NCBI GenBank assembly: GCA_030674475.1
Contig: JAUSCZ010000007.1
Coordinates: 669 to 64,668, forward strand
Direction: 5' to 3'
DNA length: 64,000 nt
Origin: Candidatus Omnitrophota bacterium
GTDB taxonomy: Bacteria; Omnitrophota; Gorgyraeia; Gygaellales; UBA12090
The notes beneath the pieces were generated by a model. It had not been told where the DNA came from, did not search any database, and saw only the letters and a list, made by a program, of their open reading frames with translations. The translations under genes were made by a program, and so were the position numbers. Numbering within the stretch: position 1 is the stretch's first letter; every line of letters starts with the position of its first letter. Positions 14,681 through 29,070 of the stretch are shown in pieces.

Positions 14681-15898
14681 ATGCGGGAGCTGTTAGAAGG
14701 ATCCCTCGCTGTAGCTGAGGCGATAAAATTATGCAAACCGGGGGTGATTTCTGCTTACCCGATTACCCCGCAAACCCATATCGTGGAGGAGTTAGCGGCA
14801 ATAGTCGCCAACGGAAAGCTCAAGGCTGAGTTTGTGAATGTGGAATCAGAACATTCCGCGGCCAGCGTGGTTTTAGGCGCCTCCGCGGCCGGGGTACGTT
14901 CTTTTACCGCTACCAGCTCTCAGGGGCTTCTGCTTATGTTAGAGGTAGTCTTTAATATCTCCGGGATGCGCTTTCCGGTAGTAATGACCTGTGCTAATAG
15001 GTCAATTTCCGCTCCTTTAAACATCTGGAATGACCATCAGGACGCCATTACGGTGCGCGATTCCGGATGGGTGCAGTTACACGCGGAGAATGTTCAGGAG
15101 GCCATTGATTTACATATCCAGGCCTACCGGATTGCCGAAGATCCTAAGATAATGCTCCCGGTGATGGTGAATATGGATGGCTTTATCCTTACCCACGGTT
15201 TAGAGGTGGTAGAGCTTCCAAGTCAGGATCAGGTGGATAGTTTTCTGCCCGCGTATAAAGCTTTATATAAATTAGATGTGAATAATCCGCTGACCTTTGG
15301 GCCCTTGGTTGATCCGGATTATTATATGGAGGCCCGCTTTGCCGTTCATCAAACCCTTAAAGATGTTTTAAAGCTTATTCCAGCGGTAAAAGAGGAATTT
15401 CAAAAAATATTCGGCCGCGCCTCCGGCGGTTTGGTTGAGGGGTATAGATTAGATGATGCCGAAAAAGTGATTGTGGCTATGGGTTCGGTCTGTGGCACGA
15501 TTAAGGATGTAATAGACGCCTTAAGGGAGAAGGGCAAGAAAGTAGGCTTACTTAAGATTATTACTTATCGGCCTTTGCCTATTGATGAGATATATCAGGC
15601 CTTAAAAAATGTGCCCCGGGTGGCGGTATTAGAGAAGGCGGTGTCTTTGGGTTCTTATAGCCCTTTACTGAGCGAAATCCGCGCGGTATTTAGCGGTAAA
15701 AAGAAATCTCCAGTGATCAGCGGTTTTGTTATCGGACTGGGAGGAAGGGATATTACCATTGATTCCATCAAAGAGGTATACAAAAGATTAAGCGCTAAAA
15801 CCATAAGCGAAGAATATATTGATTTAAAGCCAGAGTTATTAGACCCTTCTTTTAAGGATGGGAAGGTCTATCCTTCTGGATTAGAGGAAAGCGTATGA
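14681..15898 (+). CDS. porA: Pyruvate:ferredoxin oxidoreductase alpha subunit
   Basis: [32 protein letters not shown] is typical of PorA/VorA; 405 aa. Confidence 0.85.
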
Positions 15899-17934
15899 CC
15901 ACTCCAGCCGCGGAACATCTTTTTTGCGCCGGACACACCGCTTGCGCCGGATGCGGCCAGGCGGTTGCCGCCAGATTAGTCATAGATATTGCCGGAAAAA
16001 ACACTATGATTGCCAATAATACCGGTTGTCTGGAGGTTTTCTCCACCAAATATCCGGAATCATCCTGGGGAGTTCCCTGGATACATTCCTTATTTGAGAA
16101 TGCCGCGGCAGTGGCCTCCGGCATTGAGGCGGCCTTAAAGCATCTGGGAGTCAAGGATAAGATAAACGTCATCTGCCAGGCCGGCGACGGCGGGACCGCG
16201 GATATCGGCTTGCAGGCCCTTTCCGGAATGTGGGAAAGAGGCCACGACATTCTCTCTATCTGTTATGATAATGAAGCGTACATGAATTGTTTAAGCCTCT
16301 CAGCCTTGATTTTAACCGCGGATGGGCTTAAGAAAATAACTGAGGTAAGGGTCGGCGACGGGATTTATGCCTTCGACCAGAATACCCAGCACTTAGTGAT
16401 TAAAAAATGCAGCGGTATCTTTGATAACGGCAAAAAAGAGGTATTTGAATTGCAAACTCACCACCATTCCATAAAGGCAACCGCGAATCATCCTTTTCTG
16501 GTTTTAAAAAGAAACGGCAGAGGGCGGTCAAATTCTTTGGTCTGGAAGACGCTTGAGAATGTCAAAATCGGTGATCAGGTAATATCTTTAAAAGGGATGA
16601 ACGGCGCCTGCCGGTCGTTTAAATTCAATGAGATAAATAAAGTAAAAAAAGGCGATTATAAGGTTAATAAGCTTAATGAAGTAAATTTGCCCCGGGAATC
16701 CAGTCCCGAGTTGATGAAATACCTGGGGATATTTGTCGGTGACGGCTGGAGAAGGGCAGGCCGGGCTGAGATAGGATTTGCCCTGCCCAAAGGCAAAAAA
16801 GCCAGAGAGGTTCTGGTTGGCCTGCATAAAGAAATATTTTCTAGTCCCGTATCCCAGGATGAAAACTATCTTTCAATTTACTCGGTTAACTTAACTAAAT
16901 TTATAGATACATTGGGGTTGGGACAGGGGGCGAAGAATAAAACCATCCCCGGCTGGATATTCACCCTTCCCAAGGAAGAGAAAGAAGCGTTTGTTGAGGG
17001 CCTGATGCTGGCTGACGGGTATGATCATCAAGGGAGCAAAAGATATGTCTCGGCAAGTTTTGAGCTCCTGAAACGGATGCGCTTATTGCTCCAGACGCTT
17101 AATTACCGGGTGGGAAAGATTCATACCCAAACCAAGAAAAAAGGCACTAAATGCGTAAATAGGAACTTATTGGCAGATTCAGAATATGGGTATATCTGTT
17201 TTAGCCGGAAAAAACAACGGGATATGGAAAAATATCCTTCACAATGCCGGTATCAGGATTTCCTGATGGAGAATGAATTTTTTCAGACCGAAGAAATTAT
17301 CAGTGTAGAGTCTAAAGGCATAGAACCGACCCTGGATTTGCGGGTAGAGGATGAGCATAATTTTATCGCTGACGGCATTGTGGTGCATAATACCGGTGTT
17401 CAGCGCAGCGGATTGACCCCTTTTGAAACCAGCACCTCTACTACTCCGATAGGCAGTCAATCCGCGGGCAATCCCCGGCCCAAGAAGCCGATGCCGGAGA
17501 TTGCCGTGGCTCACGGTTTGGCTTATGTGGCTACAGCTTCGGTGGGCTACTTAAGAGATATAGAGAATAAGGTTAAAAAGGCCATAGCCATTAAGGGCCC
17601 GAAATATCTCCAGATTCACGTTCCCTGCCCTTTGGGCTGGAGGCATGAGTCTCAATTTACTTATGATATCGCTAAGCTCGCGGTGGAAACCGGGCTTTAC
17701 CCTTTAATAGAATATGAAAACGGAAAACTGACCAACGCGCGTAAATTAGCCAAGATTAAGCCGGTTGAGGAATATTTAAAATGTCAGGGAAGATTTAAAC
17801 ATATTATCAGCTCGCCTGAGTTAATTAAACAGATACAGGCGGTGGCGGATAAAAATATTGAGAGATACGGCCTGAGAGCGGAGCAAACCGTTCCACAACC
17901 GCCTCAAGCCGTAAACGCTCAACCAAAAGTCTAA
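15895..17934 (+). CDS. porB: Pyruvate:ferredoxin oxidoreductase beta subunit (TPP-binding), interrupted by an in-frame intein; mature extein ~311 aa
   Basis: Extein N-part ...[12 protein letters not shown]...GDGG...CYDNEAYMN and C-part [11 protein letters not shown]... match PorB. The 679-aa ORF is ~370 aa longer than normal PorB. Confidence 0.85.
16288..17391 (+). mobile_element. Intein (368 aa) with LAGLIDADG homing-endonuclease domain inserted in porB between YMN and TGVQRSG
   Basis: Begins with Cys ([14 protein letters not shown]...). Ends with ...IVVHN followed by extein Thr. Internal LAGLIDADG motifs [10 protein letters not shown] and [11 protein letters not shown]. The insertion splits the conserved PorB block YMN|TGxQRS. 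Confidence 0.75.
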
Positions 17935-18142: not shown

Positions 18143-18171
18143 GACTTAATAAAAAGTATTTTTAGCTGTTG

Positions 18172-18208
18172 ATGGCGGTTCGCGTTACGCGGGCCGCCAT
18201 TTTTGTTC
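18172..18208 (+). terminator. Rho-independent terminator (GC hairpin ATGGCGGTTCGCGttacGCGGGCCGCCAT + TTTTGTTCTT), copy 1 of a repeated terminator family
   Basis: Stem-loop plus T-run seen directly. The same hairpin core recurs at 21284, 24708, 25757 and 29091. Confidence 0.7.
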
Positions 18209-18282: not shown

Positions 18283-18326
18283 ATCAAGTTCTTTCCTATC
18301 GCTGCAAACTCGGGAAAGAACTTTAT
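18283..18326. promoter_or_regulatory. Inverted-repeat operator-like site AATCAAGTTCTTTCC-N15-GGGAAAGAACTT (degenerate right arm)
   Basis: Near-identical to the perfect 16-bp inverted repeat at 24928..24974. Sits ~90 bp upstream of the 18412 promoter. Confidence 0.45.
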
Positions 18327-18339
18327 TTTTCCTTTTTTT

Positions 18340-18440
18340 ACCCCGCCTTTTCCGTTTCCCGACGACAATCCCGCCCCAGGAAAGCGCTTTCCCAAAAACC
18401 CGGTTTGGCCCTTGTTTTGGGTATTTTTTTGTGGTATATA
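18340..18440 (+). promoter_or_regulatory. Conserved ~70-bp block (TTTTACCCCGCC...CCGGTTTGGCCC) plus extended -10 promoter (TTGTTT-17-TGgTATATA), copy 1 of 3
   Basis: The block is >85% identical to 21375..21447 and 25845..25918. The -35/-10 spacing is appropriate for driving the 18488 gene. Confidence 0.55.
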
Positions 18441-18487: not shown

Positions 18488-19216
18488 ATGAAGAGGATAA
18501 AAACTTTAGATTGTTTTTTAATATTTCTGGTGTTTAGTCTTGGTTTGTTTCGAAATTCTTTTGCTGGCACGGAGGAGGGTAGTTGTGGCGCGGATAAGAA
18601 TTGTGTGAAGATTTCAACAAAAGATATTGAATTCAGGTATAGAGCATTAGGGGAAGAGCCGTTTTTTAAGGAAGAAGTCAGTAAATTCACTCGTGAATCT
18701 GCGGGTGTATATTCAACATCTGAGAGTATTGAGCTTAAGGATGGGGAAAGGATGATTGACCATTTCTTTGGACTTACTTCTTTGGAAAGCAGTTGGCCCG
18801 GTGAAATGAGCTTCTTATTCTATCGCGATAATCGCGGCCTGGCGAGTCTTGTCTCGGAAGTTACCTCTTCCGAACCTACATTTGATGAGGATGGGCGTTT
18901 GAGTAAATTGGTAATTAAAGGAACTGATTTATCCGGAGATAAGATTACAATTACCAGGACGGGTTTCAAATATGATACTAACGGAAGAATAAGATCTTAC
19001 GGAGTAACACATTTCTATCCGGATGGAGGGTTGTCAGGTTCCCAAACATCGCTAGGCATATCAGAAATTACTTATAGCAAAGAAGGAAGAATAAAACAGT
19101 TTGTTTATTCATATCAGGGGTACGGAGGTTCTGCTGCGAAGAAAAAGGTGTATAATATAAAATATAATATGTATGGGGATGTAATCTCTTGTCTTAGAAA
19201 TGATGTTGTCTCCTGA
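18488..19216 (+). CDS. Secreted hypothetical protein (signal peptide MKRIKTLDCFLIFLVFSLGLFRNSFAG)
   Basis: 242 aa with a signal peptide and no recognised domain. Its 3' end abuts an out-of-frame remnant of the paralog-family C-terminus. Confidence 0.55.
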   Translation: MKRIKTLDCFLIFLVFSLGLFRNSFAGTEEGSCGADKNCVKISTKDIEFRYRALGEEPFFKEEVSKFTRESAGVYSTSESIELKDGERMIDHFFGLTSLESSWPGEMSFLFYRDNRGLASLVSEVTSSEPTFDEDGRLSKLVIKGTDLSGDKITITRTGFKYDTNGRIRSYGVTHFYPDGGLSGSQTSLGISEITYSKEGRIKQFVYSYQGYGGSAAKKKVYNIKYNMYGDVISCLRNDVVS

Positions 19217-19380
19217 TAGAATATTGGAGGAAAAGCAGGATGACCTCTTAGTCTGTCTGGCCGAGATCTACCGCCTGGCTGAGGATGAGAACTTAGAAAC
19301 CAGCCCGGAACTGCGGGAGTCCCTGGTGATTGTAGACACCGGCAAATTCGTCCTCTTGCCCAACAGTTAGAATGTGGTTT
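19200..19380 (+). pseudogene. Orphan C-terminal fragment of the large secreted paralog family (...EEKQDDLLVCLAEIYRLAEDENLETSPELRESLVIVDTGKFVLLPNS*)
   Basis: ~90% nucleotide identity to 24005..24130 and 28170..28300. Out of frame relative to the 18488 ORF. The final KVGLN* codons are displaced to 19450..19467 by an inserted hairpin element. Confidence 0.7.
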
Positions 19381-19382
19381 AG

Positions 19383-19448
19383 TCCGCCTACGCGCGCTTT
19401 GCACGCTACGGCGGGTCCGCCGTAGCGAACGAAGTGAGCGTAGGCGGA
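19383..19448. repeat. Small nested-hairpin insertion element (outer inverted repeat TCCGCCTACGC/GCGTAGGCGGA; inner CTACGGCGG/CCGCCGTAG; contains GCGAACGAAGTGAGCG)
   Basis: Absent from the corresponding position of both intact paralogs. The perfect nested inverted repeats are seen directly. Confidence 0.65.
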
Positions 19449-19633
19449 AAGGTGGGGTTGAATTAAAGTCGTTGGGTTAGTATTGTTTTTAAGCCTCACT
19501 GCATAATTATTTGCGGGTGAGGCTTTTTGTTAATTGAAAATAATTGAAAGTAAATAGCCTTGAATTTCTTCGAGAATCTGATATATTATATTTGTAAAAG
19601 ACGGATTTTGTAAGATTAAAGGAGACGAATAAT

Positions 19634-20577: not shown

Positions 20578-20582
20578 CTGGC

Positions 20583-20611
20583 TTGACAAGGAATGATGTA
20601 TAAGTTATACT
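20583..20611 (+). promoter_or_regulatory. Near-consensus sigma70-type promoter TTGACA-17-TATACT for the AbrB/RelE-like operon
   Basis: gcTTGACAaggaatgatgtataagtTATACT, ~55 nt upstream of the 20669 start. Confidence 0.6.
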
Positions 20612-20668
20612 TTGGATATAAGTAAGTAAGGAAGTAAGGAAATAAGAGAGTAAGGAGGATAAAACATA

Positions 20669-20932
20669 ATGACTATAGTGGATACCGCAAAGATTACCTC
20701 AAAAGGCCAGATTACTATTCCTAACCGGATTAGGAAGATTTTGCATCTTAGCGAAGGTTCATCTTTGGCTTTCGGAGTAGGCCGGGAAGGAGTTTTATTG
20801 ATGCCGTGCAAGGTTACGGCTGACTCGGTATATACCGAGCAGGAATGGGTTAAGATTGAGAAACTGGCCGCTGTCAAGGGTAAGGTTTATAAGAGTTCAA
20901 AGGCCGCCAAAAAACATATCCAAGGGCTATGA
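20669..20932 (+). CDS. AbrB/MazE/SpoVT-family antitoxin
   Basis: MTIVDTAKITSKGQITIPNRIRKILHLSEGSSLAF is a swapped-hairpin AbrB-type DNA-binding N-terminus. Confidence 0.7.
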   Translation: MTIVDTAKITSKGQITIPNRIRKILHLSEGSSLAFGVGREGVLLMPCKVTADSVYTEQEWVKIEKLAAVKGKVYKSSKAAKKHIQGL

Positions 20933-21207
20933 GGTTTGAATTTAAGCCTTCCTTTGACCGGTCAATTAAGGCCTTTCCGGAAAGAGAAAAGCAGGAGTTA
21001 AAGGATGCCGCTTGCCGATTGATAGATGCCTTATCCGGACAAGAGTTAATCCCTAAAGGTATGGGTTTGAAGAAGCTTAGAGGAAATTTCTGGGAGATGC
21101 GCAAAGGTTTAAAGACCAGGATACTTTTTAGGCGCGAGAAAGATTGGCTTGAGTTTATCCTGGCCGGAGATCACAACGATATCAAACGTTTCCTGAGAAG
21201 GGCTTGA
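20929..21207 (+). CDS. RelE/ParE-superfamily toxin (partner of the AbrB-type antitoxin)
   Basis: 92 aa, overlaps the antitoxin by 4 nt. Paralogous to 28777..29070. Confidence 0.6.
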   Translation: MRFEFKPSFDRSIKAFPEREKQELKDAACRLIDALSGQELIPKGMGLKKLRGNFWEMRKGLKTRILFRREKDWLEFILAGDHNDIKRFLRRA

Positions 21208-21283: not shown

Positions 21284-21322
21284 ATGGCGGTCCGCACTAC
21301 CCGGGCCGCCATTTTTATTTTT
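21284..21322 (+). terminator. Rho-independent terminator ATGGCGGTCCGCactacCCGGGCCGCCAT + TTTTATTTTT (copy 2)
   Basis: Hairpin plus T-run immediately downstream of the RelE-like gene. Confidence 0.75.
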
Positions 21323-21374
21323 AACCCGCCCTATTCTTCGGCAATAGCCGTTTTGCGCTTATTTTTTCTCTTTT

Positions 21375-21475
21375 TTACCCCGCTTTTTCAGTTTCCCGAC
21401 GACAACCCCGCCCCAGGAAAGCGCTTTCTCAAAAACCCGGTTTGGCCCTTGAAACGGGTAAATCCTATGGTATAC
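21375..21475 (+). promoter_or_regulatory. Conserved ~70-bp block plus promoter TTGAAA-16-TGgTATACT (copy 2) driving paralog A
   Basis: -35 at 21448..21453 and extended -10 at 21467..21475. The block is >90% identical to copy 3. Confidence 0.6.
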
Positions 21476-21819
21476 TTTAGGCAAAAGATGGCCAACCCAA
21501 AAGATAACCCGGATAAAATCCCGGTAGCGCGCTGTGACAGTAATCAAGCCCTCTCCTTATTGGGAGAGGGTGGGGTGAGGGAATACATAAACCAATTAGT
21601 TCCCCCTCATCCTAACCTTCTCCCGCAGGGGGAGAAGGAAGTAATTGGCAATAACTGTCACAATCAGACTGTGTCGCAATCTCTTAAAATGACCATTTTG
21701 TCATTCTGAGGGAGCAGGGCGACCGAAGAATCTCGTCGTTAATTTAAAAGACGAGATCCTTCGCTAGCGCTCAGGATGACATTATGACACAGTCTGAATG
21801 CAAGAGAAAGGACTTTGTG

Positions 21820-24153
21820 ATGTTTAAAAAACTGATTTCTATTCTTTTGTCTTTTACTTTTATCACCACTCAGCCTGTATTCGCCCAAGGAGTGGCCCAG
21901 CTGAATATGGCCCAATACCTGGGTTCAATGCCGGCTGTTGCGGCAGACCGGTTCCGTCCTTTGCATATGCGCTATTTCTCCTATGATATAGAGAAAGATA
22001 ACTTCCAGCTACTCTTAGATAAAGGAGACAATAAGGATATAAAGGAAGTTGAACTTCAGGAAAAGACCAAGGTTCTGATGGAGTATTTCCAAATTGGCTT
22101 AGCCCTGCCTAATGATAAGTTCTGGGTAAACCTAAGGCCGGATGCCCAAGACCAGATCATTGATCCGGAATTAGAGCAGACTGATTTAGGCAAGATAATG
22201 TTAGAGGCAGACTTGCAGTTAAAGAAGGATACCGCCAGCTTTACCTCACCCCAGACCACAGAAGGCAGACAATACTGGGATAAGCTCTATAAGAAGGCCG
22301 GAGAATTATTCGGCACCGAAAACATCACTATCCCCACCATCACCCGTCCCTGGATAGTCCCGGGCGAGATAATCCTAAGGCAAGGAGAGGATTCAGCCTA
22401 TATCTTTAAGGCCAATATGAAGGTGATGTTAGAGCATGATTATTTGGTCAGTAGGGGCGGGTCGCGAACCGCCCCTACGTATCAACAATACGCCTTTTCC
22501 GACCCCCGGATGAAGGAGTTAAACGAATATTCCACCCAACTTATCAGAGAGCTGATTATCCCCAAGCTGACCAAAGAGGTAAACACCTCCAAAAGATACG
22601 CCGCTCTTCGGCAGGTATTCTTTTCTCTGGTAATGGCCAGATGGTTTAAGGACACTTTCACTGGAAAGCCCGGCCAATATGCCAGCCTGATCGACAGCCA
22701 CAACCTCAACAATCTCACCTCCAAAGAGGCCTGGAGCAAAACCTTCTACTTCAACGAATACAAGAAGTCCTTTGAACAAGGCGAATACAACCTTAAGGAG
22801 AATATCGGCACCCCTTATGGGCAAATAATCAGGAGCTATGTCAGCGGGGGCATCGTAGGCAGTAGTAGCGCAATGACTCAGCATACATACCATAATGGTA
22901 AAAATAATGATGGAAACCCAAAACATCTCGTTGCTGCTATTATTAAACGTGATAAGCGGTTCGGGAATAAAACTGGAAATCTTTATGTTACAATGCACAC
23001 AAATAATGAAATAGTTAAAATGGAAGTAAATAATTCAGGAATGGGCGAAGTAGAGATTATTCCAAAATCAAAAGATTTTAATACGGATAATAAAAAAGGC
23101 TCTTCGCCGATGGAGGCAGGGCAGAAAGATATGGATTCTTTTTCTCTTGAACAGATAGAAGAAATGCGAAAGCTTGAACAAAGATTGTGGGTTATAGTTA
23201 AGGACATTGAAAAGATACTTGATGAAGTGGAATTAAGTAAGCTCCAGAACAAGGGTGAAATTGAGATTACGAATGATGGCTTTAAAGGTATTCATAGAAT
23301 GTTAGCCTATTTAAAGACTCTTACCCGGGAGGGTACAAGAATAGAAATAAATAATGGAGCAATAGATGGAATCGCGGATATGTTTTCTATAATAGGCTTA
23401 GTAGATATTCTGCCGGAAGGATATGAGGTGCGATCAGGACCAAGATTATTAACATTAAGGGGTAGTATTTCTGAGTTAAAACAGCTTCAGGAAGATTGGG
23501 AAAAGTGGGAGGTTAACCCGGAGAATGTGGTAAAAAGAATCGTAGCTCAGATTGGCTCTGCGTCTGAGGAAGATATAAAACTTATTGTAAAAACTTTTCG
23601 GGAAGAGATTAACCGCAACCCTACCGTAGAAGAGGCGGGAGAAATCCTCGGTGATGCTTTTGTGAGTCCTAAAGGTGATGGCGTAAAGGAAATGGCAGGG
23701 GAAAAGATAGCGGAGCTGAAGCAAAAAGCTTCCTCGTCGGCAATGAAATCAAGCAAAATTCCCGAAAATACCGGCGGTATTGATTTCCGTGCCATGAACT
23801 ATATGGTTCAGCCGATGGGGAGTTTTAAGGATTTGCGGTTTGGCCTGCCTACGCTGACCAGCAGCGCGTTAGAGAGGATTGACTTGGATCAGGAGTTAGA
23901 CTCCCTGCGCAATATGGTCAAGGCCGGGCTCGTGCCTTCGGGAGAGAGGGTCAAGGAATACTTAGCCGCCTGCTTTCAGAAAGGTAAGATTGAAGAAAGG
24001 CAGGATGACCTCTTAGTTTGTCTGGCCGAGATCTACCGCCTGGCCGAGGAGGAGAATTTAGAAACCAGCCCGGAACTGCGGGAGTCCCTGGTGATTGTAG
24101 ACACCGGCAAATTCGTCCTCTTGCCTAACAACCAAAAGGTGGGGCTGAATTAA
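21820..24153 (+). CDS. Large secreted protein, paralog A (777 aa; signal peptide MFKKLISILLSFTFITTQPVFAQG; conserved N- and C-terminal domains, divergent centre)
   Basis: N-terminal ~360 aa and C-terminal ~130 aa are near-identical at nucleotide level to paralog B. No known domain recognised. RBS AAAGGA precedes the ATG at 21820, so the ORF-track start at 21784 is probably upstream of the real start. Confidence 0.7.
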   Translation: MFKKLISILLSFTFITTQPVFAQGVAQLNMAQYLGSMPAVAADRFRPLHMRYFSYDIEKDNFQLLLDKGDNKDIKEVELQEKTKVLMEYFQIGLALPNDKFWVNLRPDAQDQIIDPELEQTDLGKIMLEADLQLKKDTASFTSPQTTEGRQYWDKLYKKAGELFGTENITIPTITRPWIVPGEIILRQGEDSAYIFKANMKVMLEHDYLVSRGGSRTAPTYQQYAFSDPRMKELNEYSTQLIRELIIPKLTKEVNTSKRYAALRQVFFSLVMARWFKDTFTGKPGQYASLIDSHNLNNLTSKEAWSKTFYFNEYKKSFEQGEYNLKENIGTPYGQIIRSYVSGGIVGSSSAMTQHTYHNGKNNDGNPKHLVAAIIKRDKRFGNKTGNLYVTMHTNNEIVKMEVNNSGMGEVEIIPKSKDFNTDNKKGSSPMEAGQKDMDSFSLEQIEEMRKLEQRLWVIVKDIEKILDEVELSKLQNKGEIEITNDGFKGIHRMLAYLKTLTREGTRIEINNGAIDGIADMFSIIGLVDILPEGYEVRSGPRLLTLRGSISELKQLQEDWEKWEVNPENVVKRIVAQIGSASEEDIKLIVKTFREEINRNPTVEEAGEILGDAFVSPKGDGVKEMAGEKIAELKQKASSSAMKSSKIPENTGGIDFRAMNYMVQPMGSFKDLRFGLPTLTSSALERIDLDQELDSLRNMVKAGLVPSGERVKEYLAACFQKGKIEERQDDLLVCLAEIYRLAEEENLETSPELRESLVIVDTGKFVLLPNNQKVGLN

Positions 24154-24169
24154 GCGGAGAGAGAAAAAG

Positions 24170-24382
24170 TCAGGCAGGCTGCAGATTAACTAACTCTATG
24201 CTGGGTTGCTTGTGTTTTAAGAGGTATTTTTTGGCGTCGAGTATTTCAATTCCCACTACTGAGCCATCGGGAGCGTAATTTACGGCAATATCTTCGGTGA
24301 GCCTCTGAGTAGTAACCTGAAAACGGCCTTCTTTCAACCGTATATAGGCCGCGTCAACTTTTGGATCATAGATTATTTTCAT
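24170..24382 (-). CDS. DUF2283-family small protein (antitoxin-like partner of DUF4258)
   Basis: MKIIYDPKVDAAYIRLKEG...VGIEILDAKKYL is the typical DUF2283 pattern. Confidence 0.6.
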   Translation of the reverse strand: MKIIYDPKVDAAYIRLKEGRFQVTTQRLTEDIAVNYAPDGSVVGIEILDAKKYLLKHKQPSIELVNLQPA

Positions 24383-24450
24383 AGCTCTTTGGACGCGCCG
24401 CGTTCAAGCATTTGGAATAAGGCGTGGTCTGAGAAGATGATGGTTTTCAT
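24381..24450 (-). pseudogene. Truncated DUF4258-family gene remnant (MKTIIFSDHALFQMLERGASKEL*)
   Basis: Minus-strand 23-codon ORF with the canonical DUF4258 N-terminus, then a premature stop overlapping the DUF2283 start. Confidence 0.5.
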
Positions 24451-24707
24451 TGGTTTCTCCTGATAGTTTAATTATAGCAACAATTTAGGTTAAGGCAACC
24501 CAAAAATAAATATTATCACTCGTGTCCAAATTAGACCATGAATACCGACGACAAAGCAGTTTTAAGATTCCAAAACTGTCATGCCCGCGAAGGCGGGCAT
24601 CCAGACTCTTGAGTCAATTGCGGATTCCCGACAAAAGATTTTGGGAATGATACTGTAACAGCTAATTTGGACAGCAATGAAATATTATAATGAATTTTTT
24701 AGTTGTT

Positions 24708-24748
24708 GATGACGGTCTGGATTACTCGGGCCGCCATTTTTATTTTTG
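24708..24748 (+). terminator. Degenerate copy of the GGCGG..CGGGCCGCC terminator hairpin + TTTTTATTTTT
   Basis: gacggtctggattaCTCGGGCCGCCATTTTTATTTTT; the left arm is eroded. Confidence 0.4.
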
Positions 24749-24927
24749 AAGCTTTCCCGATTTTGTAGCAAGCCTTTTCTGTAACGCAGTATTCATCATC
24801 GGTTTAAGATAAAATTTTGCGCGCTGGGCTAAACTTTACAGGAAAGCTTCTGATTATGGCGATTAAATACAGATTCCAGAGATTTATTACCGACGTAAAA
24901 TCGCTGTAATCTTTTAAAAATCTCTGT

Positions 24928-24974
24928 AATCAAGTTCTTTCCCTTTTGCTGCAAACTTGGGAAAGAACTTGATT
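24928..24974. promoter_or_regulatory. Perfect 16-bp inverted repeat AATCAAGTTCTTTCCC-N15-GGGAAAGAACTTGATT (operator-like site) abutting a promoter
   Basis: Seen directly, 6 bp upstream of the -35 TTGATT. Preceded by tandem CTGTAATC motifs. Confidence 0.55.
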
Positions 24975-24980
24975 AAAAGA

Positions 24981-25009
24981 TTGATTAGCGTTACGGGTAT
25001 GCTATAATT
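24981..25009 (+). promoter_or_regulatory. Consensus-like promoter TTGATT-17-TATAAT for the PIN-domain gene
   Basis: TTGATTagcgttacgggtatgcTATAAT, ~10 nt upstream of the ATG at 25017. The leader is very short. Confidence 0.55.
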
Positions 25010-25016
25010 ATATTAT

Positions 25017-25484
25017 ATGCATAAACCCAAGTTATATTTGGATACAACTATACCCAGCTATGTGTTTAATAGCCATGTTCCCGATAAACAAACAGCTGCC
25101 CGGAAACTCTTTGAATACATTGATAAAGAGAAGGCGGAAGCCTATATCTCTACGGTTGTAGTCCGCGAGCTTAGTAAAACTGGAGAGGACTATCTGAAAG
25201 ATAGGTTGTTTGCTCTAATAAAAGATATGACGGTTCTAGAGGTTACTCAGGAGTGCGTAGAGCTTGCCGGTGAGTATATTCAAAGAGGAATCATACCTAA
25301 AGAAAATATAGATGATGCCTTGCATATTGCCTGCGCGAGCGTTTACGAGATTGATTTTCTAGTCAGCTATAATTTTGAACATATTGTTCGGATAAAAACT
25401 ATTGATAATGTGTCGGCAATAAACGTATTATTGGGATTTAAAACACCGCGTATCATCATTCCCGAGGAGGTAATTGATGTTTAA
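25017..25484 (+). CDS. PIN-domain protein (VapC-like putative RNase toxin)
   Basis: LYLDTTIPSY..., DALHIACASVYEIDFLVSYNFEHI: acidic residues positioned as in the PIN fold. 155 aa. Confidence 0.5.
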   Translation: MHKPKLYLDTTIPSYVFNSHVPDKQTAARKLFEYIDKEKAEAYISTVVVRELSKTGEDYLKDRLFALIKDMTVLEVTQECVELAGEYIQRGIIPKENIDDALHIACASVYEIDFLVSYNFEHIVRIKTIDNVSAINVLLGFKTPRIIIPEEVIDV

Positions 25485-25674
25485 GATGTCTGAACTTAAC
25501 CCGAAAGACAAGACCCTTGATGAAATTCACAATATCCAGAAAGAAATCTATGATGAAGACAAGGGGATAACTGTTAAAGATTTGTTAGAAAGATATAACT
25601 CAAGCGTCAGGAAAGTTGCTCAAGAATATAAGATTAATCTCAAAGTGGTTTCTTCCAAAGAAATCCATATCTAA
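25474..25674 (+). CDS. Small hypothetical protein overlapping the PIN gene (possible cognate partner)
   Basis: 66-aa ORF with an 11-nt overlap to the PIN gene; no recognised motif. Confidence 0.35.
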   Translation: MMFKMSELNPKDKTLDEIHNIQKEIYDEDKGITVKDLLERYNSSVRKVAQEYKINLKVVSSKEIHI

Positions 25675-25756
25675 AACTTCGATCTGCTTTAGCAGTGTAG
25701 TCTTATCCCGGTAGCAGTATAAATTCAATCATTAGCATACAGAAAAAGTATGGGAT

Positions 25757-25795
25757 GGCGGTCCGCACTACCCGGGCCGCCATTTTTATTTTTAA
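25757..25795 (+). terminator. Rho-independent terminator ATGGCGGTCCGCactacCCGGGCCGCCAT + TTTTATTTTT (copy 3)
   Basis: Identical to the 21284 copy. Confidence 0.75.
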
Positions 25796-25844
25796 CCCGC
25801 CCTATTCTTCGGCAATCGCCGTTTTTCGCTTATTTTTTCCTTTT

Positions 25845-25946
25845 TTTACCCCGCCTTTTCTGTCTTCCGACGACAATCCCTTCCCAGGAAAGCGCTTTCT
25901 CAAAAACCCGCCTTGGCCATTGAAACGGGTAAATTCTGTGGTATAC
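25845..25946 (+). promoter_or_regulatory. Conserved ~70-bp block plus promoter TTGAAA-16-TGgTATACT (copy 3) driving paralog B
   Basis: -35 at 25919..25924 and extended -10 at 25938..25946. Only a ~60-nt leader to the RBS GGGGGA. Confidence 0.6.
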
Positions 25947-26009
25947 TTTAGGCAAAAGATGGCCAACCCAAAAGATAAACCAAATAAAGTTCAAGTAGGG
26001 GGATATAAA

Positions 26010-28325
26010 ATGTTTAAAAAACTGATCTCTATTCTTTTGTCTTTTACTTTTATCACCACCCAGCCCGTATTCGCCCAAGGCGTAGCCCAGCTGAATATGG
26101 CCCAATACCTGGGTTCAATGCCGGCTGTTGCGGCAGACCGGTTCCGTCCTCTGCATATGCGCTATTTATCTTACGATGCGGCTACTGATAATTTCCAGCT
26201 TCTTTTAGATAAAGGGGATGATCAGGATATTAAGGTAGGGAACGGTCGCGACCGTTCCCTACAGGAAAAGACCAAGGTCCTGATGGAGTATTTCCAGATA
26301 GGATTAGCCCTGCCTAATGACAAGTTCTGGGTAAACCTAAGGCCGGATGCCGAAGACCAGATAATTGACCCGGAGTTAGAAAAGACCGATATGGGTAAGA
26401 TAATGCTGGAGTCAGACCTGCAGTTAAAGAAGGATACTGCCGGCTTCACCTCACCCCAGACCACAGAAGGCAGACAATACTGGGATAAGCTTTATAAGAA
26501 AGCCGGAGAACTCTTCGGCACCGAAAACATCACCATCCCCACCATCACCCGTCCCTGGATAGTCCCGGGTGAGATAATCCTAAGGCAAGGCGAAGACTCG
26601 GCCTATATCTTCAAGGCCAATATGAAGGTGATGCTGGAGCATGACTACTTAAGCTCTCAGCCTTCAGCTCTCAGCTCTCAGCAATATAATTTCAAAGACC
26701 CCCGGATGAAAGAGTTGAACGAATACTCCAGCCAACTGATTAGAGAGTTGATTATCCCTAAATTAACCAAAGAGGTAAACACCTCTAAAAGATACGCCGC
26801 CTTAAGACAGGTATTCTTTTCCTTAGTCATGGCCCGCTGGTTTAAGGATACTTTCAGCGGCAAACCTGGCCAATACTCCCAGTTGATTGACAGCCACAAC
26901 CTCAACAACCTCACCTCCAAGGAGGCCTGGTCCAAGACAACCTACTTCAACGAATACAAGAAGTCCTTTGAAAAAGGCGAATACAACCTTAAGGAAGACA
27001 TCTCCACCCCTACCGGCCAGGTGATCAGGAGTTATGTCAGCGGGGGGATTACTGGTTCAAGCAGCGCAATGGGTAAGAATATAACCCATAATAATGGAGA
27101 GCACCCTCTTGATGTTGTTAATATTTTTTATAAAATGCCGAAAGGACATAACTCCGGAAATCTTTTTCTTGTGAAATCCATAGGCGATAAAACAATAGTA
27201 GAAATAGTCTCCTCAAATTCTCCGGAACGCCCAGGCAAAGAAAATATTATAAAGAATGAAGCAAGGGCCGGCTCAGCGCTGATGGAGGCAAAGCCTGCGG
27301 AATTTTTCTCTTTTGAAGAAAGCGAGGAGTTAAGAAAGAATCTTGAACAGAATATGTGGGTAAGGGTGGAGGATATTAAAACAATACTTTCTAACGCCTT
27401 GAATAGCATAGATGTTAATAATGACGCTTTTCCGAATATTCGTAAAGATATTAATAGTATTTTAATGTATTTAAATATTTTTAACAATAGGGATGCAAGA
27501 ATAAAAGGAAAAGATATAGATGAGATTGTGGAAATTCTTTACAAAAAAGGCACCTCCAGCGAGAAGTCCTTGTTTGATATTCTTCCGAAAGGATATAAGG
27601 TATGGTCGGGAGGGCGATCTGTAACATTAAGTGGCAGTGTTTCAGAATTAAGACGGTTCCAGGAAGCTTGGGAAAAGCTAGAAATTGATGCGGAGGCTGT
27701 AGTAAAGAGAATCGTAGGGCAAACGGGTGCTGCGAGTGAGAAATATGTAAAATATATTGTGGAAAGATTCCGGGAAAAGATTGACCGTAACCCTACTATG
27801 CAAGAGACAGGAGAAATTATAGGCTACGTTATTCAGAATCATAAAGGAAATGAGAGCCTGCCGGAAATAGTAGATGAAAAGATAGCGGAGATTATGGCTT
27901 CTTCCTCGATGGAGACAATTTCTAAGTCTGTTCCTAAAAACGCCGGTGGTATTGATTTCCGGACTATGAACTATCTGGTCCAGCCGATGGGGAGTTTTAA
28001 GGATTTGCGGTTTGGCTTGCCTACTTTAACCAGCAGCGCGTTAGAGAGGATTGACCTGGATAAGGAATTAGACTCCCTGCGCGATATGGTCAAGGCCGGG
28101 ATGGTGCCTTCGGGGATGCGGGTCAAGGAATACCTGGCCGCCTGCTTCCAGAAAGGTAAGATTGAGGAAAAGCAGGATGACCTCTTAGTCTGTCTGGCCG
28201 AGATCTACCGCCTGGCTGAGGAGGAGAACTTAGAAACCAGCCCGGAACTGCGGGAGTCCCTGGTAATTGTAGACACCGGTAAATTCGTCCTCATGCCTAA
28301 CAACCAAAAGGTGGGGCTGAGTTAA
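26010..28325 (+). CDS. Large secreted protein, paralog B (771 aa; same signal peptide and conserved termini as paralog A)
   Basis: Nucleotide-level near-identity to paralog A over ~26010..27070 and ~27950..28325, with the centre ~40% aa identity. The ORF-track start at 25755 is a read-through of the upstream module. Confidence 0.7.
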   Translation: MFKKLISILLSFTFITTQPVFAQGVAQLNMAQYLGSMPAVAADRFRPLHMRYLSYDAATDNFQLLLDKGDDQDIKVGNGRDRSLQEKTKVLMEYFQIGLALPNDKFWVNLRPDAEDQIIDPELEKTDMGKIMLESDLQLKKDTAGFTSPQTTEGRQYWDKLYKKAGELFGTENITIPTITRPWIVPGEIILRQGEDSAYIFKANMKVMLEHDYLSSQPSALSSQQYNFKDPRMKELNEYSSQLIRELIIPKLTKEVNTSKRYAALRQVFFSLVMARWFKDTFSGKPGQYSQLIDSHNLNNLTSKEAWSKTTYFNEYKKSFEKGEYNLKEDISTPTGQVIRSYVSGGITGSSSAMGKNITHNNGEHPLDVVNIFYKMPKGHNSGNLFLVKSIGDKTIVEIVSSNSPERPGKENIIKNEARAGSALMEAKPAEFFSFEESEELRKNLEQNMWVRVEDIKTILSNALNSIDVNNDAFPNIRKDINSILMYLNIFNNRDARIKGKDIDEIVEILYKKGTSSEKSLFDILPKGYKVWSGGRSVTLSGSVSELRRFQEAWEKLEIDAEAVVKRIVGQTGAASEKYVKYIVERFREKIDRNPTMQETGEIIGYVIQNHKGNESLPEIVDEKIAEIMASSSMETISKSVPKNAGGIDFRTMNYLVQPMGSFKDLRFGLPTLTSSALERIDLDKELDSLRDMVKAGMVPSGMRVKEYLAACFQKGKIEEKQDDLLVCLAEIYRLAEEENLETSPELRESLVIVDTGKFVLMPNNQKVGLS

Positions 28326-28488
28326 GCGGATTTCTCGCTGAAAGTCATTCTTCAGGGTGGTTCTCTAAGAGAGAACCACCCTGTTTTTATTTGGTAATTG
28401 ACAAAGCTGTATTGTATGCTATACTTATATGTAGAAATGCAGTAATGCGGATAATTATTGTTAGATAACAAGGAGGATATTGTTATGA

Positions 28489-28787
28489 TTGGCATGAAGA
28501 ATATGGCTGTGGTTTCTGAAAGAGGCACGGTTACCATCCCTAATGCTGTAAGAAGGACCGCGCGCATCCGCCCCGGAGACTTGCTTGAGTTCAAGCCGCA
28601 GGGCGATAGCGTGATCTTAAGACATATGATAGTCAGAGGCGCCGGAGAAGGGGACTTTTTGAGCGATAATGAATGGATGGAATTTGATAAGCTGGTAAAT
28701 AAACAGTTAAAAGAAGGCGCGTATAAGAGCTATGGGGACATAAAACAGGCTAAATCGCATTCCCGCAGGCTGATGCGTGGCGCGTGA
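28489..28787 (+). CDS. AbrB/MazE-family antitoxin (second copy)
   Basis: MIGMKNMAVVSERGTVTIPNAVRRTARIRPGDLLEF parallels the 20669 gene. Confidence 0.65.
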
Positions 28788-29070
28788 AATAGCCGTGGTT
28801 ATAAATTATCTTAGTTCCTACGACCGCTCTTTTAAGAAGCTGGATGTCCCGGCCCAAAGAAAAACCGTATCGGCTATAAATAATTTTCTCTCTTTCTTAG
28901 GCAGCCGTCAGAAACCCGAAGGCTTGGGTCTGAAAAAGATTTATAAAAATTATTGGGAGATTCGGATAAATATTCGTAACCGGATAATCTTTCAGTTAGA
29001 AGGCGGGGTTATAAATATTTCCTTTGTCGGCGACCACAATGCCGTCAGGGTGTTTATAAGAAAACCTTAA
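28777..29070 (+). CDS. RelE/ParE-superfamily toxin (second copy, paralog of 20929..21207)
   Basis: Shares LKKL/IYKNYWEIR...ILF...GDHN motifs with the first copy. Confidence 0.6.
   Translation: MAREIAVVINYLSSYDRSFKKLDVPAQRKTVSAINNFLSFLGSRQKPEGLGLKKIYKNYWEIRINIRNRIIFQLEGGVINISFVGDHNAVRVFIRKP

What the first reader, a model, noticed from the sequence alone, without database searches (positions are those of the whole stretch)
21820..28325. Two ~775-aa secreted paralogs with homogenised termini and a divergent centre, plus an orphan third C-terminal fragment
Paralog A (21820..24153) and paralog B (26010..28325) share a near-identical signal peptide plus ~360-aa N-terminal domain and a ~130-aa C-terminal domain. 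Identity is near-complete at nucleotide level. Their central ~280 aa are only ~40% identical, and GC content drops in the variable centre. A third copy of the C-terminal ~55 codons sits out of frame behind an unrelated secreted gene (19200..19380). Each paralog is driven by a copy of the same promoter module. The pattern suggests ongoing gene conversion at the ends with diversifying selection or cassette exchange in the middle. That would fit a variable surface/secreted protein system or a polymorphic effector family. No known domain is recognisable, so this is a candidate novel family.
Basis: seen in the sequence. Interest (0 to 1): 0.7.

Follow-up and report, generated by a model that had tools for sequence, protein, structure and literature searches.

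The report
Swappable-cargo exported protein family in Omnitrophota
The two look-alike genes are real, and they belong to a very large unnamed protein family of Omnitrophota bacteria in which the same front and back modules, behind an export signal, frame an exchangeable middle part that in other members is a complete metabolic enzyme or a string of glycolysis enzymes.

Summary
A (21820..24153) and B (26010..28325) are about 90% identical in protein over the first ~345 and last ~130 residues and 44% identical in the centre. A decayed third 3' end lies at 19221..19466, and one promoter module occurs three times. The ends are not near-identical in DNA (74-95%). Synonymous divergence in the N module (dS ~0.8) equals that of the centre, so the ends are conserved mainly by purifying selection. 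Only promoter plus signal peptide and the last ~50 codons look recently homogenised (pS 0.15-0.19). The centre is a recombination mosaic relative to single-copy genes in the same genomic slot of sister genomes (runs test z = -13; breakpoint p = 3e-26). Conserved ends with a variable centre is the architecture of a whole family: at least 6,400 clusters at 50% identity, seen almost only in Omnitrophota, with no Pfam or NCBIfam model. The N module has no solved structural relative; the C module matches only generic helical bundles. Inserts range from 70 to about 6,000 residues and include full-length PGK, GAPDH, TIM, enolase, iPGM, GPI, PPDK and transketolase, sometimes fused in one protein. The function of the scaffold is inferred, not shown.

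The parts
18171..18201 (+). G+C-rich hairpin followed by a T run (terminator-like). It is the first of five related copies (18158, 21270, 24695, 25741, 29077) and precedes module copy 1.
   Evidence: (family D8)
18321..18440 (+). Promoter/leader module, copy 1 (85-88% identical to the copies in front of A and B).
   Evidence: (D7)
18488..19216 (+). 242-aa ORF with an N-terminal hydrophobic signal-like segment. It occupies the place of the body of a former third family gene. It is an orphan: only 3 close homologues and no domain hit.
19221..19366 (+). Remnant of the family C module (49 codons, open, 92-93% nt identity to A and B). It is out of frame with the 242-aa ORF and lies behind its stop.
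   Evidence: (D1)
19367..19448 (.). ~82-nt palindromic insertion (GTCCGCCTACGC...GCGTAGGCGGA) that splits the remnant.
19449..19466 (+). End of the remnant: AAGGTGGGGTTGAATTAA, which encodes K V G L N and the stop, as at the end of A.
21284..21527 (+). Hairpin plus promoter module, copy 2 (91% identical to 25755-25998). The sigma-70-like site TTGAAA-16-TATACT with TG lies at 21449-21476.
   Evidence: (D5)
21528..21808 (+). Insertion in the leader of A that is absent from B, with inverted repeats (REP/MITE-like). Coordinates are approximate.
21820..24153 (+). Paralog A, 777 aa. Signal peptide 21820-21885 (MFKKLISILLSFTFITTQPVFA|QG), N module 21886-22854, centre 22855-23769, C module 23770-24150. 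Mosaic boundaries lie at about 23086, 23509 and 23800.
25755..25998 (+). Hairpin (25752-25786) plus promoter module, copy 3. The sigma-70-like site lies at 25920-25947.
26010..28325 (+). Paralog B, 771 aa. Signal peptide 26010-26075, N module to 27050, centre 27051-27941, C module 27942-28322. Mosaic boundaries lie at about 27258, 27681 and 27972.
28353..28383 (+). Terminator-like hairpin after B.

Best explanation
A and B are tandem duplicates of one ancestral gene, and a third copy survives only as a stump. The ancestral gene sits in a conserved slot, pyruvate:ferredoxin oxidoreductase / ferredoxin ... ppiD - hisG, in related Omnitrophota genomes.

They belong to a very large, unnamed, apparently Omnitrophota-restricted family built in four parts:
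- a Sec-type signal peptide;
- a constant N module of ~320 aa, an alpha/beta fold without a solved relative;
- an exchangeable insert of 70 to about 6,000 aa, delimited by a short x-S-S-(P/A)-(I/L/V/M) punctuation motif and by invariant SGG and GGIDFR junctions;
- a constant C module of ~115-130 aa, a beta-hairpin plus a small helical bundle.

The N and C modules are predicted to pack into one unit, so the insert behaves as a domain inserted into a bipartite scaffold.

Shown:
- The ends of A and B are alike mainly because the scaffold is under strong purifying selection.
- Only promoter plus signal peptide and the last ~50 codons were recently homogenised between A and B.
- The centre is cargo that evolves under weaker constraint with AT-rich codons, and homologous recombination between allelic types reshuffles it.

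Inferred:
- The scaffold supplies a shared step, either export plus localisation or assembly at the envelope, or hand-over to a secretion machine.
- The insert supplies the specific activity. In A and B the insert is a ~90-aa disordered linker plus a ~200-aa helical domain of unknown function. In other members it is full-length enzymes.
For: Architecture:
- 109 of the 120 best homologues carry both the N and the C module at their termini, with inserts of 70-904 aa. The other 11 look truncated.
- A profile search finds 8,294 clusters at 50% identity with E<=1e-3 and 6,438 with E<=1e-30, with lengths up to 6,439 aa.
- 79 unrelated insert clusters occur among the 109 members. Of 116 pairs with at least 80% N-module identity, only 23 have related inserts.
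- Inserts verified by Pfam are PGK (full length), GPI, GAPDH, GDH, guanylate kinase, DnaJ, a methyltransferase, iPGM, enolase, PPDK, transketolase, transaldolase, PGM, GH94 and TIM. Some proteins string GAPDH-PGK-TIM-enolase together.
- The SSP tripeptide is 10-fold enriched (151 against 14.9 expected) and sits at domain borders.

Structure:
- In the AlphaFold models the N and C modules have pLDDT >90.
- The minimal member P0050 (537 aa with a 76-aa disordered linker) has pTM 0.76, more than the N module alone could give.
- There is no Pfam, NCBIfam, PADLOC or PDB-sequence match for either module. By fold, the N module has no match and the C module aligns only with generic helical bundles.

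Selection:
- N module dN 0.076, dS 0.74; centre dN 0.42, dS 0.83; C module dN 0.078, dS 0.35.

Recombination:
- Segment-wise nearest neighbours flip between A, B and the sister-genome gene O (L002). Columns 1-37 and 761-807 have A=B (95% nt).
- Columns 439-592 have A~O (83%), and columns 593-690 have B~O (92%).
- The runs test gives z = -13.4 and the Fisher test at the breakpoint gives p = 3e-26.
- L001 carries a B-type centre plus an extra 280-aa segment.

Synteny:
- The same slot holds one gene in L001 and L002, and a PGK-bearing family gene in L017, L022 and L052.

Composition:
- GC3 of the frames is 0.54-0.56 against 0.36 for the inserts, and the N module exceeds the insert in 15 of 15 genes from other genomes.
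Against: - No experiment or localisation data exist, so the scaffold's function is pure inference.
- Packing of N against C is inferred from pTM only; no PAE map or coordinates were seen.
- At least 9 of 109 members have a hydrophobic, TM-like helix 20-30 aa after the N module. That would put N and C on opposite sides of a membrane and conflicts with a single packed, fully exported unit.
- Cargo such as PGK, GAPDH or DnaJ needs ATP/NAD(H) or cytoplasmic partners, so an extracytoplasmic location is puzzling.
- The signal peptide was judged by eye (MFKK, 13 hydrophobic residues, P, V-F-A|Q), not with a predictor.
- Restriction to Omnitrophota rests on 47 genome loci found with A-derived patterns and on source names. 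The large profile search carries no taxonomy.
- NG86 estimates in the poorly aligned, AT-rich centre are rough.
Confidence: 0.7

Rival explanations
1. One reading: a contingency or antigenic-variation-type system. Ongoing gene conversion keeps the termini of the paralogs identical, while the centre is driven apart by diversifying selection or swapped from cassettes to vary a surface protein.
For: - Promoter plus first 37 codons and the last ~50 codons of A and B are 95% identical with pS 0.15-0.19, while both differ from the sister-genome gene by pS 0.5-0.7.
- The centre is mosaic.
- An orphan 3' fragment is present.
- GC3 is elevated in the frames, as GC-biased conversion would give.
Against: - Most of the N module has pS 0.38-0.63, like the centre.
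- The modules are conserved across thousands of proteins in other genomes.
- dN/dS in the centre is about 0.2-1.06 by window, about 0.5 overall.
- There are only two expressed copies, both with promoters. There are no silent cassette arrays, and the orphan holds only the constant part.
- The divergence levels imply exchange on evolutionary time scales, not programmed switching.
Confidence: 0.15
2. A membrane-tethered cytoplasmic scaffold. The N-terminal hydrophobic helix is an uncleaved anchor, or the N module alone is outside. Cargo and C module work in the cytoplasm, so the family organises cytoplasmic enzymes such as glycolysis at the membrane as a metabolon.
For: - The cargo is of typical cytoplasmic type and catalytically intact. 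The PGK motifs RVDFNV, SHxGRP, GGxKVSxK, VVGGGDT and STGGGASL are all kept.
- Strings of GAPDH-PGK-TIM-enolase resemble a fused operon.
- At least 9 of 109 members have a TM-like helix just after the N module.
Against: - The N terminus has the canonical cleavable design (two lysines, a short 13-residue h-region, a proline, V-x-A|Q), conserved family-wide as ...FAQ.
- About 90% of members have no second hydrophobic helix, so cargo would follow the N module out.
- The models suggest that N and C pack together.
Confidence: 0.15
3. A polymorphic toxin/effector locus. The variable centres would be toxins or effectors delivered to competitors or prey, and the small neighbouring genes would be immunity or antitoxin partners.
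For: - The proteins combine constant trafficking-like modules with a variable payload.
- An orphan remnant is present.
- Small toxin-antitoxin genes flank A and B and another paralog.
- Omnitrophota are proposed predators or episymbionts (papers 10.1101/2023.11.21.568195 and 10.64898/2026.06.07.730766).
Against: - The variable part is internal, not C-terminal.
- No known toxin, Rhs, PAAR, LXG or TPS domain is present, and PADLOC gives nothing.
- The neighbours are ordinary type II TA pairs (MNT/HepT, MazE-like, PIN, DUF2283), each with its own partner, and they differ between genomes.
- Family cargo is dominated by housekeeping-type enzymes and repeat domains.
Confidence: 0.05
4. An assembly or binning artefact, in which a collapsed or chimeric repeat creates apparent paralogs.
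For: The sequence is a metagenome-assembled genome, and repeats are error-prone in assembly.
Against: - The copies differ at 5-45% of positions, with indels.
- They are separated by unique genes.
- Independent assemblies carry A-like, B-like and mosaic alleles in the same synteny.
Confidence: 0.01

Closest known systems
Flagellin (FliC) architecture, including flagellins with enzymatic hypervariable domains (flagellinolysins) [from general knowledge]
   Same: - Conserved N- and C-terminal parts come together.
- A central region varies from almost nothing to hundreds of residues and can be an enzyme.
- Recombination in the conserved ends yields mosaic centres.
   Different: - There is no sequence or fold relation: no Flagellin_N/C hit, and the N module is alpha/beta, not a coiled coil.
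- These proteins carry a Sec signal peptide.
- There is no evidence of polymerisation.
- Inserts reach thousands of residues and several enzymes in a row.
Polymorphic toxin / effector systems (Rhs, CDI, MafB, LXG; Zhang & Aravind concept) [from general knowledge]
   Same: - Constant trafficking part plus swappable payload.
- Many paralogs per genome.
- Orphan fragments next to full genes.
- Recombination-driven exchange.
   Different: - The payload is internal, between two constant modules.
- There are no known trafficking or toxin domains and no dedicated immunity gene.
- The payloads are mostly metabolic enzymes and repeat domains.
Dockerin-bearing cellulosomal enzymes and the dockerin-type / multi-enzyme giant proteins of Omnitrophota (10.1101/2023.11.21.568195; 10.64898/2026.06.07.730766)
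   Same: - One constant module is attached to many different catalytic domains.
- In Omnitrophota, signal-peptide-bearing proteins carry cytoplasm-type metabolic domains.
   Different: - There is no dockerin or cohesin hit.
- The constant part is bipartite and flanks the cargo.
- In the passages retrieved by term searches of these two papers, this N/C frame is not mentioned.
Gene-conversion antigenic variation loci (pilE/pilS, vlsE) [from general knowledge]
   Same: - Conserved flanks with a variable centre.
- Mosaic alleles.
- A promoterless fragment nearby.
   Different: - There is no silent cassette array.
- The flanks are only 74-95% identical.
- The fragment holds only the constant end.
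- Exchange is seen between genomes, not as programmed switching.
Natural glycolytic enzyme fusions (the PGK-TIM fusion of Thermotoga maritima; TPI-GAPDH fusions targeted to stramenopile mitochondria, 10.1101/257790; glycosomal targeting in kinetoplastids, PMC7729029)
   Same: - Consecutive glycolytic enzymes are fused or given a common targeting device.
   Different: - Here up to four or five enzymes (GAPDH, PGK, TIM, iPGM or enolase) sit in one bacterial protein, between a Sec signal plus N module and a C module.
- A and B themselves carry no enzyme.

Membership tests
Unnamed Omnitrophota N/C-framed family (defined here from the homologues) | N-terminal Sec-type signal peptide ending ...F-A-Q | tested here: met
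   A and B begin MFKKLISILLSFTFITTQPVFA|QG. The family consensus is ...FQQxxFAQ. 105 of 109 members have an N-terminal hydrophobic segment. The peptide was judged by sequence features, not by a predictor.
Unnamed Omnitrophota N/C-framed family (defined here from the homologues) | N module of ~320 aa with invariant motifs (FWVNLRPD, TRPWIVPGE, ...SGG at its end) | tested here: met
   61 invariant columns (59 of them in the N module), all present in A and, by the pairwise alignment, in B. E-values are 0 to 1e-145.
Unnamed Omnitrophota N/C-framed family (defined here from the homologues) | C module of ~115-130 aa at the very C terminus, starting GGIDFR | tested here: met
   109 of 120 homologues, always terminal. 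A has it at residues 646-777 and B at 641-770.
Unnamed Omnitrophota N/C-framed family (defined here from the homologues) | Insert bounded by x-S-S-(P/A)-(I/L/V/M) punctuation | tested here: met
   A has GSSSAM, GSSPME and ASSSAM; B has GSSSAM, GSALME and SSSME. For the family, SSP occurs 151 times against 14.9 expected and lies at domain borders.
Polymorphic toxin systems | Recognised N-terminal trafficking domain (TPS, PAAR/Rhs, LXG, MafB-N and the like) | tested here: not met
   No Pfam or NCBIfam hit at E<1 in the constant modules.
Polymorphic toxin systems | Variable toxin domain at the extreme C terminus, followed by a cognate immunity gene | tested here: not met
   The variable part is internal and the C terminus is constant. 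The downstream genes are DUF2283 (opposite strand) after A and a MazE-like/YoeB-like pair after B.
Flagellin | Flagellin_N and Flagellin_C domains; export without a Sec signal peptide | tested here: not met
   No Pfam hit, and a signal peptide is present.
Flagellin | N and C conserved regions associate and the centre is displayed | tested here: inconclusive
   A pTM of 0.76 for the minimal member suggests a fixed N-C arrangement. No coordinates or PAE were seen, and polymerisation was not tested.
Programmed gene-conversion antigenic variation | One expression site plus several promoterless silent cassettes that hold variable sequence | tested here: not met
   There are three copies of the promoter module, and both full genes have one. 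The only fragment holds constant sequence.
Programmed gene-conversion antigenic variation | Mosaic variable region produced by segmental exchange | tested here: met
   Searches show it, but between genomes and at pS 0.16-0.26, which is not recent switching.
Autotransporter / inverse autotransporter | Membrane beta-barrel translocator domain | tested here: not met
   The model's secondary structure is mostly helices with a few hairpins, and there is no Pfam hit.
C-terminal sorting domains (T9SS CTD, PEP-CTERM, LPXTG, GlyGly-CTERM) | Recognised CTD model, or motif plus hydrophobic tail plus basic end | tested here: not met
   No Pfam or NCBIfam hit. The C terminus ...VIVDTGKFVLLPNNQKVGLN has no hydrophobic tail, and the C module is a helical bundle.

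The most novel reading that the evidence does not exclude
The N/C scaffold would be a phylum-specific targeting or assembly device. It would take cytoplasm-type proteins, including whole strings of lower glycolysis (GAPDH-PGK-TIM-iPGM/enolase), GPI, PPDK, transketolase and transaldolase, across the inner membrane by Sec. It would then hold them together at the envelope, or hand them on to prey or host cells. That would amount to an extracytoplasmic or scaffold-organised central metabolism, 'glycosome-like', in ultra-small bacteria. The x-SS(P/A)-(ILVM) punctuation and the SGG / GGIDFR junctions could be processing sites that release cargo from a polyprotein. A and B would be non-enzymatic, fast-evolving adaptor or binding members of this system.
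Probability: 0.25. Interest if true: 0.95.

Novelty: new variant of a known kind. Interest (0 to 1): 0.8.

Why it matters
- **Dark matter.** A family of thousands of sequence clusters, with many copies per genome, in a widespread phylum of ultra-small, probably predatory or episymbiotic bacteria has no name and no model. Its N module has no structural relative.
- **Metabolic reconstructions.** The family puts full-length, apparently active glycolytic and pentose-phosphate enzymes behind an export signal, inside a common frame. Reconstructions that count KO hits as cytoplasmic enzymes may therefore be misreading Omnitrophota. Where these cells run their core metabolism, or what they deliver to hosts, becomes a testable question.
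- **Modular evolution.** Constant frames, punctuated joints, cargo replaced in the same genomic slot and GC3-rich frames against AT-rich inserts make this a clear natural example.
- **Engineering.** It is also a possible natural domain-insertion scaffold.

For the window itself, it explains the A/B pattern without invoking an antigenic-variation machine.

Tried and rejected
- **Assembly artefact:** rejected. The copies are divergent, unique genes lie between them, and independent alleles exist.
- **Structured RNA or riboswitch in the repeated upstream module:** Rfam at E<=0.1 gives only two sub-threshold miRNA-model hits on the two strands of one spot, 24920-24981, outside the module.
- **Defence system:** PADLOC finds nothing.
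- **Known fold for the constant modules:**
  - Foldseek against the PDB finds nothing below E = 0.3.
  - A PDB sequence profile gives only coiled-coil noise in the insert columns.
  - AFDB50 was not available.
- **Homologue search with the centre of A (window:23137-23769):** it returned nothing, not even the parent protein, so it is uninformative.
- **Metagenome scan with the A/B/O/L001 centre profile:** it found only the source contig of L001, so the A/B-type centre is rare.
- **The 242-aa protein as cargo of other family members:** no match among the 120 homologues, and only 3 near-identical homologues anywhere.
- **A/B helical domain as the remainder of the PGK-type slot gene:** hhalign probability 0.04.
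- **Conserved partner genes next to family genes:** only the syntenic PFOR, ppiD and hisG neighbours recur, with no dedicated secretion or processing gene within 4 kb.
- **Phage carriage:** 2 hits in 2.9 million viral contigs.
- **Literature:** four full-text searches and two Omnitrophota papers queried by term search turned up no description of this frame.
Full report
**What is there**

ORF listing and repeat finding confirm two intact genes on the + strand: A at 21820..24153 (777 aa) and B at 26010..28325 (771 aa). BLASTP gives 69% identity over the full length. A codon alignment shows about 90% amino-acid identity over residues 1-345, 44% over ~346-650 and 90-95% over the last ~127 residues.

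GC falls in the centre. GC3 is 0.33-0.35 there, against 0.59-0.61 in the N part and 0.685 in the C part. Housekeeping ORFs of the window have GC3 of about 0.50.

A third copy of the 3' end lies at 19221-19366, 92-93% identical to A and B, with 49 open codons. It is behind the stop of a 242-aa ORF (18488..19216) and in another frame. After an ~82-nt palindromic insertion it resumes at 19449-19466 with the last codons KVGLN and the stop. It is therefore the decayed end of a third family gene.

A ~240-nt upstream module occurs exactly three times in the window, in front of the 242-aa ORF, A and B. It consists of a terminator-like hairpin, a T-rich tract and a sigma-70-like TTGAAA-16-TG-TATACT site. 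A's leader carries an extra ~280-nt insertion with inverted repeats. The window is a Candidatus Omnitrophota MAG, with A = Q7J72_00695 and B = Q7J72_00715.

**Are the ends 'homogenised'?**

Only at the extremes. By Nei-Gojobori estimates the three parts compare as follows:

| Part | dN | dS |
|---|---|---|
| N module | 0.076 | 0.74 |
| Centre | 0.42 | 0.83 |
| C module | 0.078 | 0.35 |

Synonymous sites in the N module are thus as diverged as in the centre. Nucleotide identity there is 74-93%, not 'near-complete'. The conserved N module reflects purifying selection (dN/dS ~0.1).

Low synonymous divergence is confined to two places. The first 37 codons are 95% identical in nucleotides with pS 0.19, contiguous with the 91%-identical non-coding promoter module. 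The last ~50 codons are also 95% identical, with pS 0.15.

In the centre, dN/dS is 0.17-1.06 by window and ~0.5 overall. This fits relaxed constraint, and positive selection is not demonstrated.

**Comparison with sister genomes**

The locus is syntenic with L002 (Omnitrophica GWA2_41_15, Hainich bin) and L001 (RIFCSPHIGHO2_02_FULL_45_21). In both, the order is PFOR alpha/beta - ferredoxin - one family gene - ppiD - hisG. The window therefore holds a local expansion, with three promoter-plus-gene units and toxin-antitoxin pairs between them: MNT/HepT, a MazE-like pair, DUF2283, PIN and a MazE/YoeB-like pair.

Aligning A, B and the L002 gene 'O' shows that the nearest neighbour flips segment by segment:

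| Alignment columns | Closest pair | Numbers |
|---|---|---|
| 1-37 | A = B | O is 68% nt identical |
| 211-232 | B = O | 91% nt; A is 56% |
| 439-592 | A ~ O | 83% nt, pS 0.26; B is 64-67% |
| 593-690 | B ~ O | 92% nt, pS 0.16; A is 67% |
| 761-807 | A = B | 95% nt; O is 84% |

The 648 informative sites form 272 runs, against 432 +/- 12 expected (z = -13.4). The switch at column 592 gives Fisher p = 3e-26.

L001's single gene has a B-type centre (87% aa, 92% nt over 1 kb) plus an additional ~280-aa segment. The centre therefore exists as allelic segment types that recombination reshuffles.

A contig from the Hainich metagenome (L048) carries the promoter, the 243-aa gene and a more decayed remnant next to ppiD. 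The replacement of the third gene's body is therefore old.

**The pattern is a family architecture**

Of the 120 best homologues, all have the N module at residues ~1-345. In 109 the C module is also present at the very end, and the other 11 look truncated. The insert between the modules is 70-904 aa, with a median of 531.

A profile search of 1.84 billion cluster representatives finds 8,294 proteins at E<=1e-3 and 6,438 at E<=1e-30, with lengths up to 6,439 aa. A scan of one genome per species finds 47 loci. Nearly all are in Omnitrophota MAGs, with several copies per genome and some tandem arrays. This genome has at least 9 members.

The inserts are highly diverse:
- There are 79 unrelated insert clusters among the 109 members.
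- Of 116 pairs with at least 80% N-module identity, only 23 share a related insert.
- N- and C-module identities co-vary (r = 0.65), so the two frames travel together.
- Frames are GC3-rich (0.54 and 0.56) and inserts GC3-poor (0.36). The N module exceeds the insert in 15 of 15 genes from other genomes, and the C module does so in 14.

A short motif, x-S-S-(P/A)-(I/L/V/M), is about 10-fold enriched and sits at domain borders. In A these are GSSSAM, GSSPME and ASSSAM. The junctions SGG (end of N) and GGIDFR (start of C) are invariant.

**What the inserts are**

Pfam verifies the following inserts:
- full-length PGK (309 bits, profile positions 5-379 of 379);
- GPI, GAPDH, GDH, guanylate kinase, DnaJ and a methyltransferase;
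- among longer members, iPGM, enolase, pyruvate phosphate dikinase, transketolase, transaldolase, phosphoglucomutase, GH94, an aminotransferase and TPR domains.

The PGK insert keeps the hallmark PGK motifs when compared with T. maritima 1vpe.

Some members string consecutive glycolytic enzymes in one frame:
- P0147 (3,600 aa) carries GAPDH-PGK-TIM-enolase.
- P0198 carries GAPDH-PGK-enolase.
- On contig SCRK01000074.1, one gene of ~3,100 aa carries GAPDH...TIM-PGK-iPGM next to a TIM-bearing one, assuming the 307-nt gap between the two loci is open.

The same PFOR-hisG slot that holds A and B holds a PGK-bearing family gene in other Omnitrophota (L017, L022, L052). That gene's frames are 55-59% (N) and 38-41% (C) identical to those of the window clade's slot genes (L001, L002), and its insert is unrelated to the A/B centre.

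The insert of A and B is not an enzyme. It is a ~90-aa disordered stretch followed by a ~200-aa helical domain (pLDDT 40-79). Relatives exist only in this small clade.

**The constant modules**

There is no Pfam, NCBIfam or PADLOC hit. AlphaFold2 with an 80-sequence alignment gives pLDDT >90 for N (45-343; mixed alpha/beta with three beta-hairpins) and for C (650-770; a hairpin plus a helical bundle with two mostly conserved cysteines).

The minimal member P0050 is 537 aa with a 76-residue disordered linker and has pTM 0.76. The N module alone could give at most ~0.58. I therefore infer that N and C are placed in a fixed mutual arrangement, which would make the insert a domain insertion into a bipartite scaffold. 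This inference rests on pTM alone.

Fold and sequence searches against solved structures were negative:
- Foldseek against the PDB finds nothing.
- The PDB sequence profile gives only noise.

The N terminus has the design of a cleavable Sec signal peptide: MFKK, 13 hydrophobic residues, a proline and V-F-A|Q. It is conserved family-wide. The organism encodes LpxC and LpxD and is thus diderm.

**Mechanism**

Shown:
- modular architecture;
- purifying selection on the frames;
- local A-B conversion at the extremes;
- segmental recombination and in-slot cargo replacement.

Inferred: the scaffold provides a common export, localisation or assembly step, and the insert provides the specific activity.

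Two facts do not fit. At least 9 of 109 members have a TM-like helix right after the N module, which is hard to reconcile with a packed N-C unit on one side of the membrane. ATP- or NAD-dependent cargo outside the cytoplasm is also puzzling.

The rivals are a membrane-tethered cytoplasmic scaffold, an antigenic-variation system, a polymorphic toxin locus and an assembly artefact. They are weighed in the rival explanations above.

**Comparison with the known**

The architecture works like flagellin's conserved ends with a hypervariable centre. It also resembles polymorphic effectors or dockerin enzymes, which combine a constant module with swappable cargo. It fails the membership tests for all of them (see the membership test above).

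Full-text searches and term searches within two Omnitrophota genomics papers found no description of this frame. Those papers do report signal-peptide-bearing giant proteins with metabolic domains in the phylum. The library is incomplete, so prior description cannot be excluded.

**Verdict**

- The finding opens onto a large, undescribed, modular exported family whose cargo includes central metabolism.
- Interest is 0.8.
- Novelty: a new variant of the 'constant carrier with swappable cargo' kind. There is a ~25% chance that it is something categorically new, namely relocation of core metabolic enzymes by a common scaffold.

Noticed in passing
L010/L014 (contig SCRK01000074.1); proteins P0147, P0198, P0206: Single family proteins with a signal peptide string together consecutive glycolytic enzymes between the N and C modules: GAPDH, PGK, TIM, and iPGM or enolase. 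It looks like a gap-pgk-tpi-eno operon fused into one ORF.
   Followed up: partly
L001 2011-2013, L004 5840-5842, L006 1666-1668 (L054 reproduces L001): Three family genes in other genomes each carry one in-frame TAA between the N and C modules, followed by more than 600 open codons up to an intact C module. The sequence contexts differ. These could be very recent pseudogenes, read-through, or an on/off switch.
   Followed up: no
window 15895..17934: The TPP-binding subunit of pyruvate:ferredoxin oxidoreductase carries an intein (Pfam Intein_splicing 1.7e-13, Hint). The L002 homologue is also 679 aa.
   Followed up: partly
window 18158, 21270, 24695, 25741, 29077: There are five copies of a 58-nt element, ATGGCGG..CGGGCCGCCAT plus a T run. 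It is a terminator-like hairpin re-used between genes of this island.
   Followed up: partly
window 19367-19448 and ~21528-21808: Two palindromic, REP/MITE-like insertions. One lies inside the orphan C-module remnant and one in the 5' leader of A (TGTCATTCTGAGGGAGC...GCGCTCAGGATGACA).
   Followed up: no
window 19634-21207, 24170-25674, 28458-29070; L049 5610-6862: Toxin-antitoxin modules sit between and beside the family genes: MNT/HepT, a MazE-like pair, DUF2283, PIN, and MazE plus a YoeB-like toxin. Another paralog of the same genome is followed by ParE and PIN genes. The sister genome L002 lacks them at this locus.
   Followed up: partly
family-wide (window A/B; L002-L037): The constant modules have GC3 well above the genome level (0.54-0.69) and the inserts well below it (0.31-0.45). 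The N module exceeds the insert in 15 of 15 genes and the C module in 14. Possible causes are GC-biased gene conversion in the frames or foreign, fast-evolving inserts.
   Followed up: partly
L037 (CAYHWL010000109.1), L009/L025 (CAZPNW01...): Family genes occur on contigs of MAGs labelled 'Methanosarcinales archaeon' and 'Planctomycetales'. This is probably mis-binning. The Methanosarcinales case is notable because a cultured Omnitrophota member preys on Methanosaeta, according to paper 10.1101/2023.11.21.568195.
   Followed up: no
about 9-12 of 109 family members (e.g. P0005, P0014, P0016, P0019, P0036): A TM-like hydrophobic helix lies 20-30 residues after the N module, including in the closest relatives of A and B, but not in A, B or O. 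This implies a different topology for a subset of the family.
   Followed up: no
window:23137-23769 as query: The word-indexed homologue search returned no hit at all for the centre of A, not even the parent protein found. Negative results of that tool for this AT-rich, low-complexity-like segment should not be trusted.
   Followed up: partly
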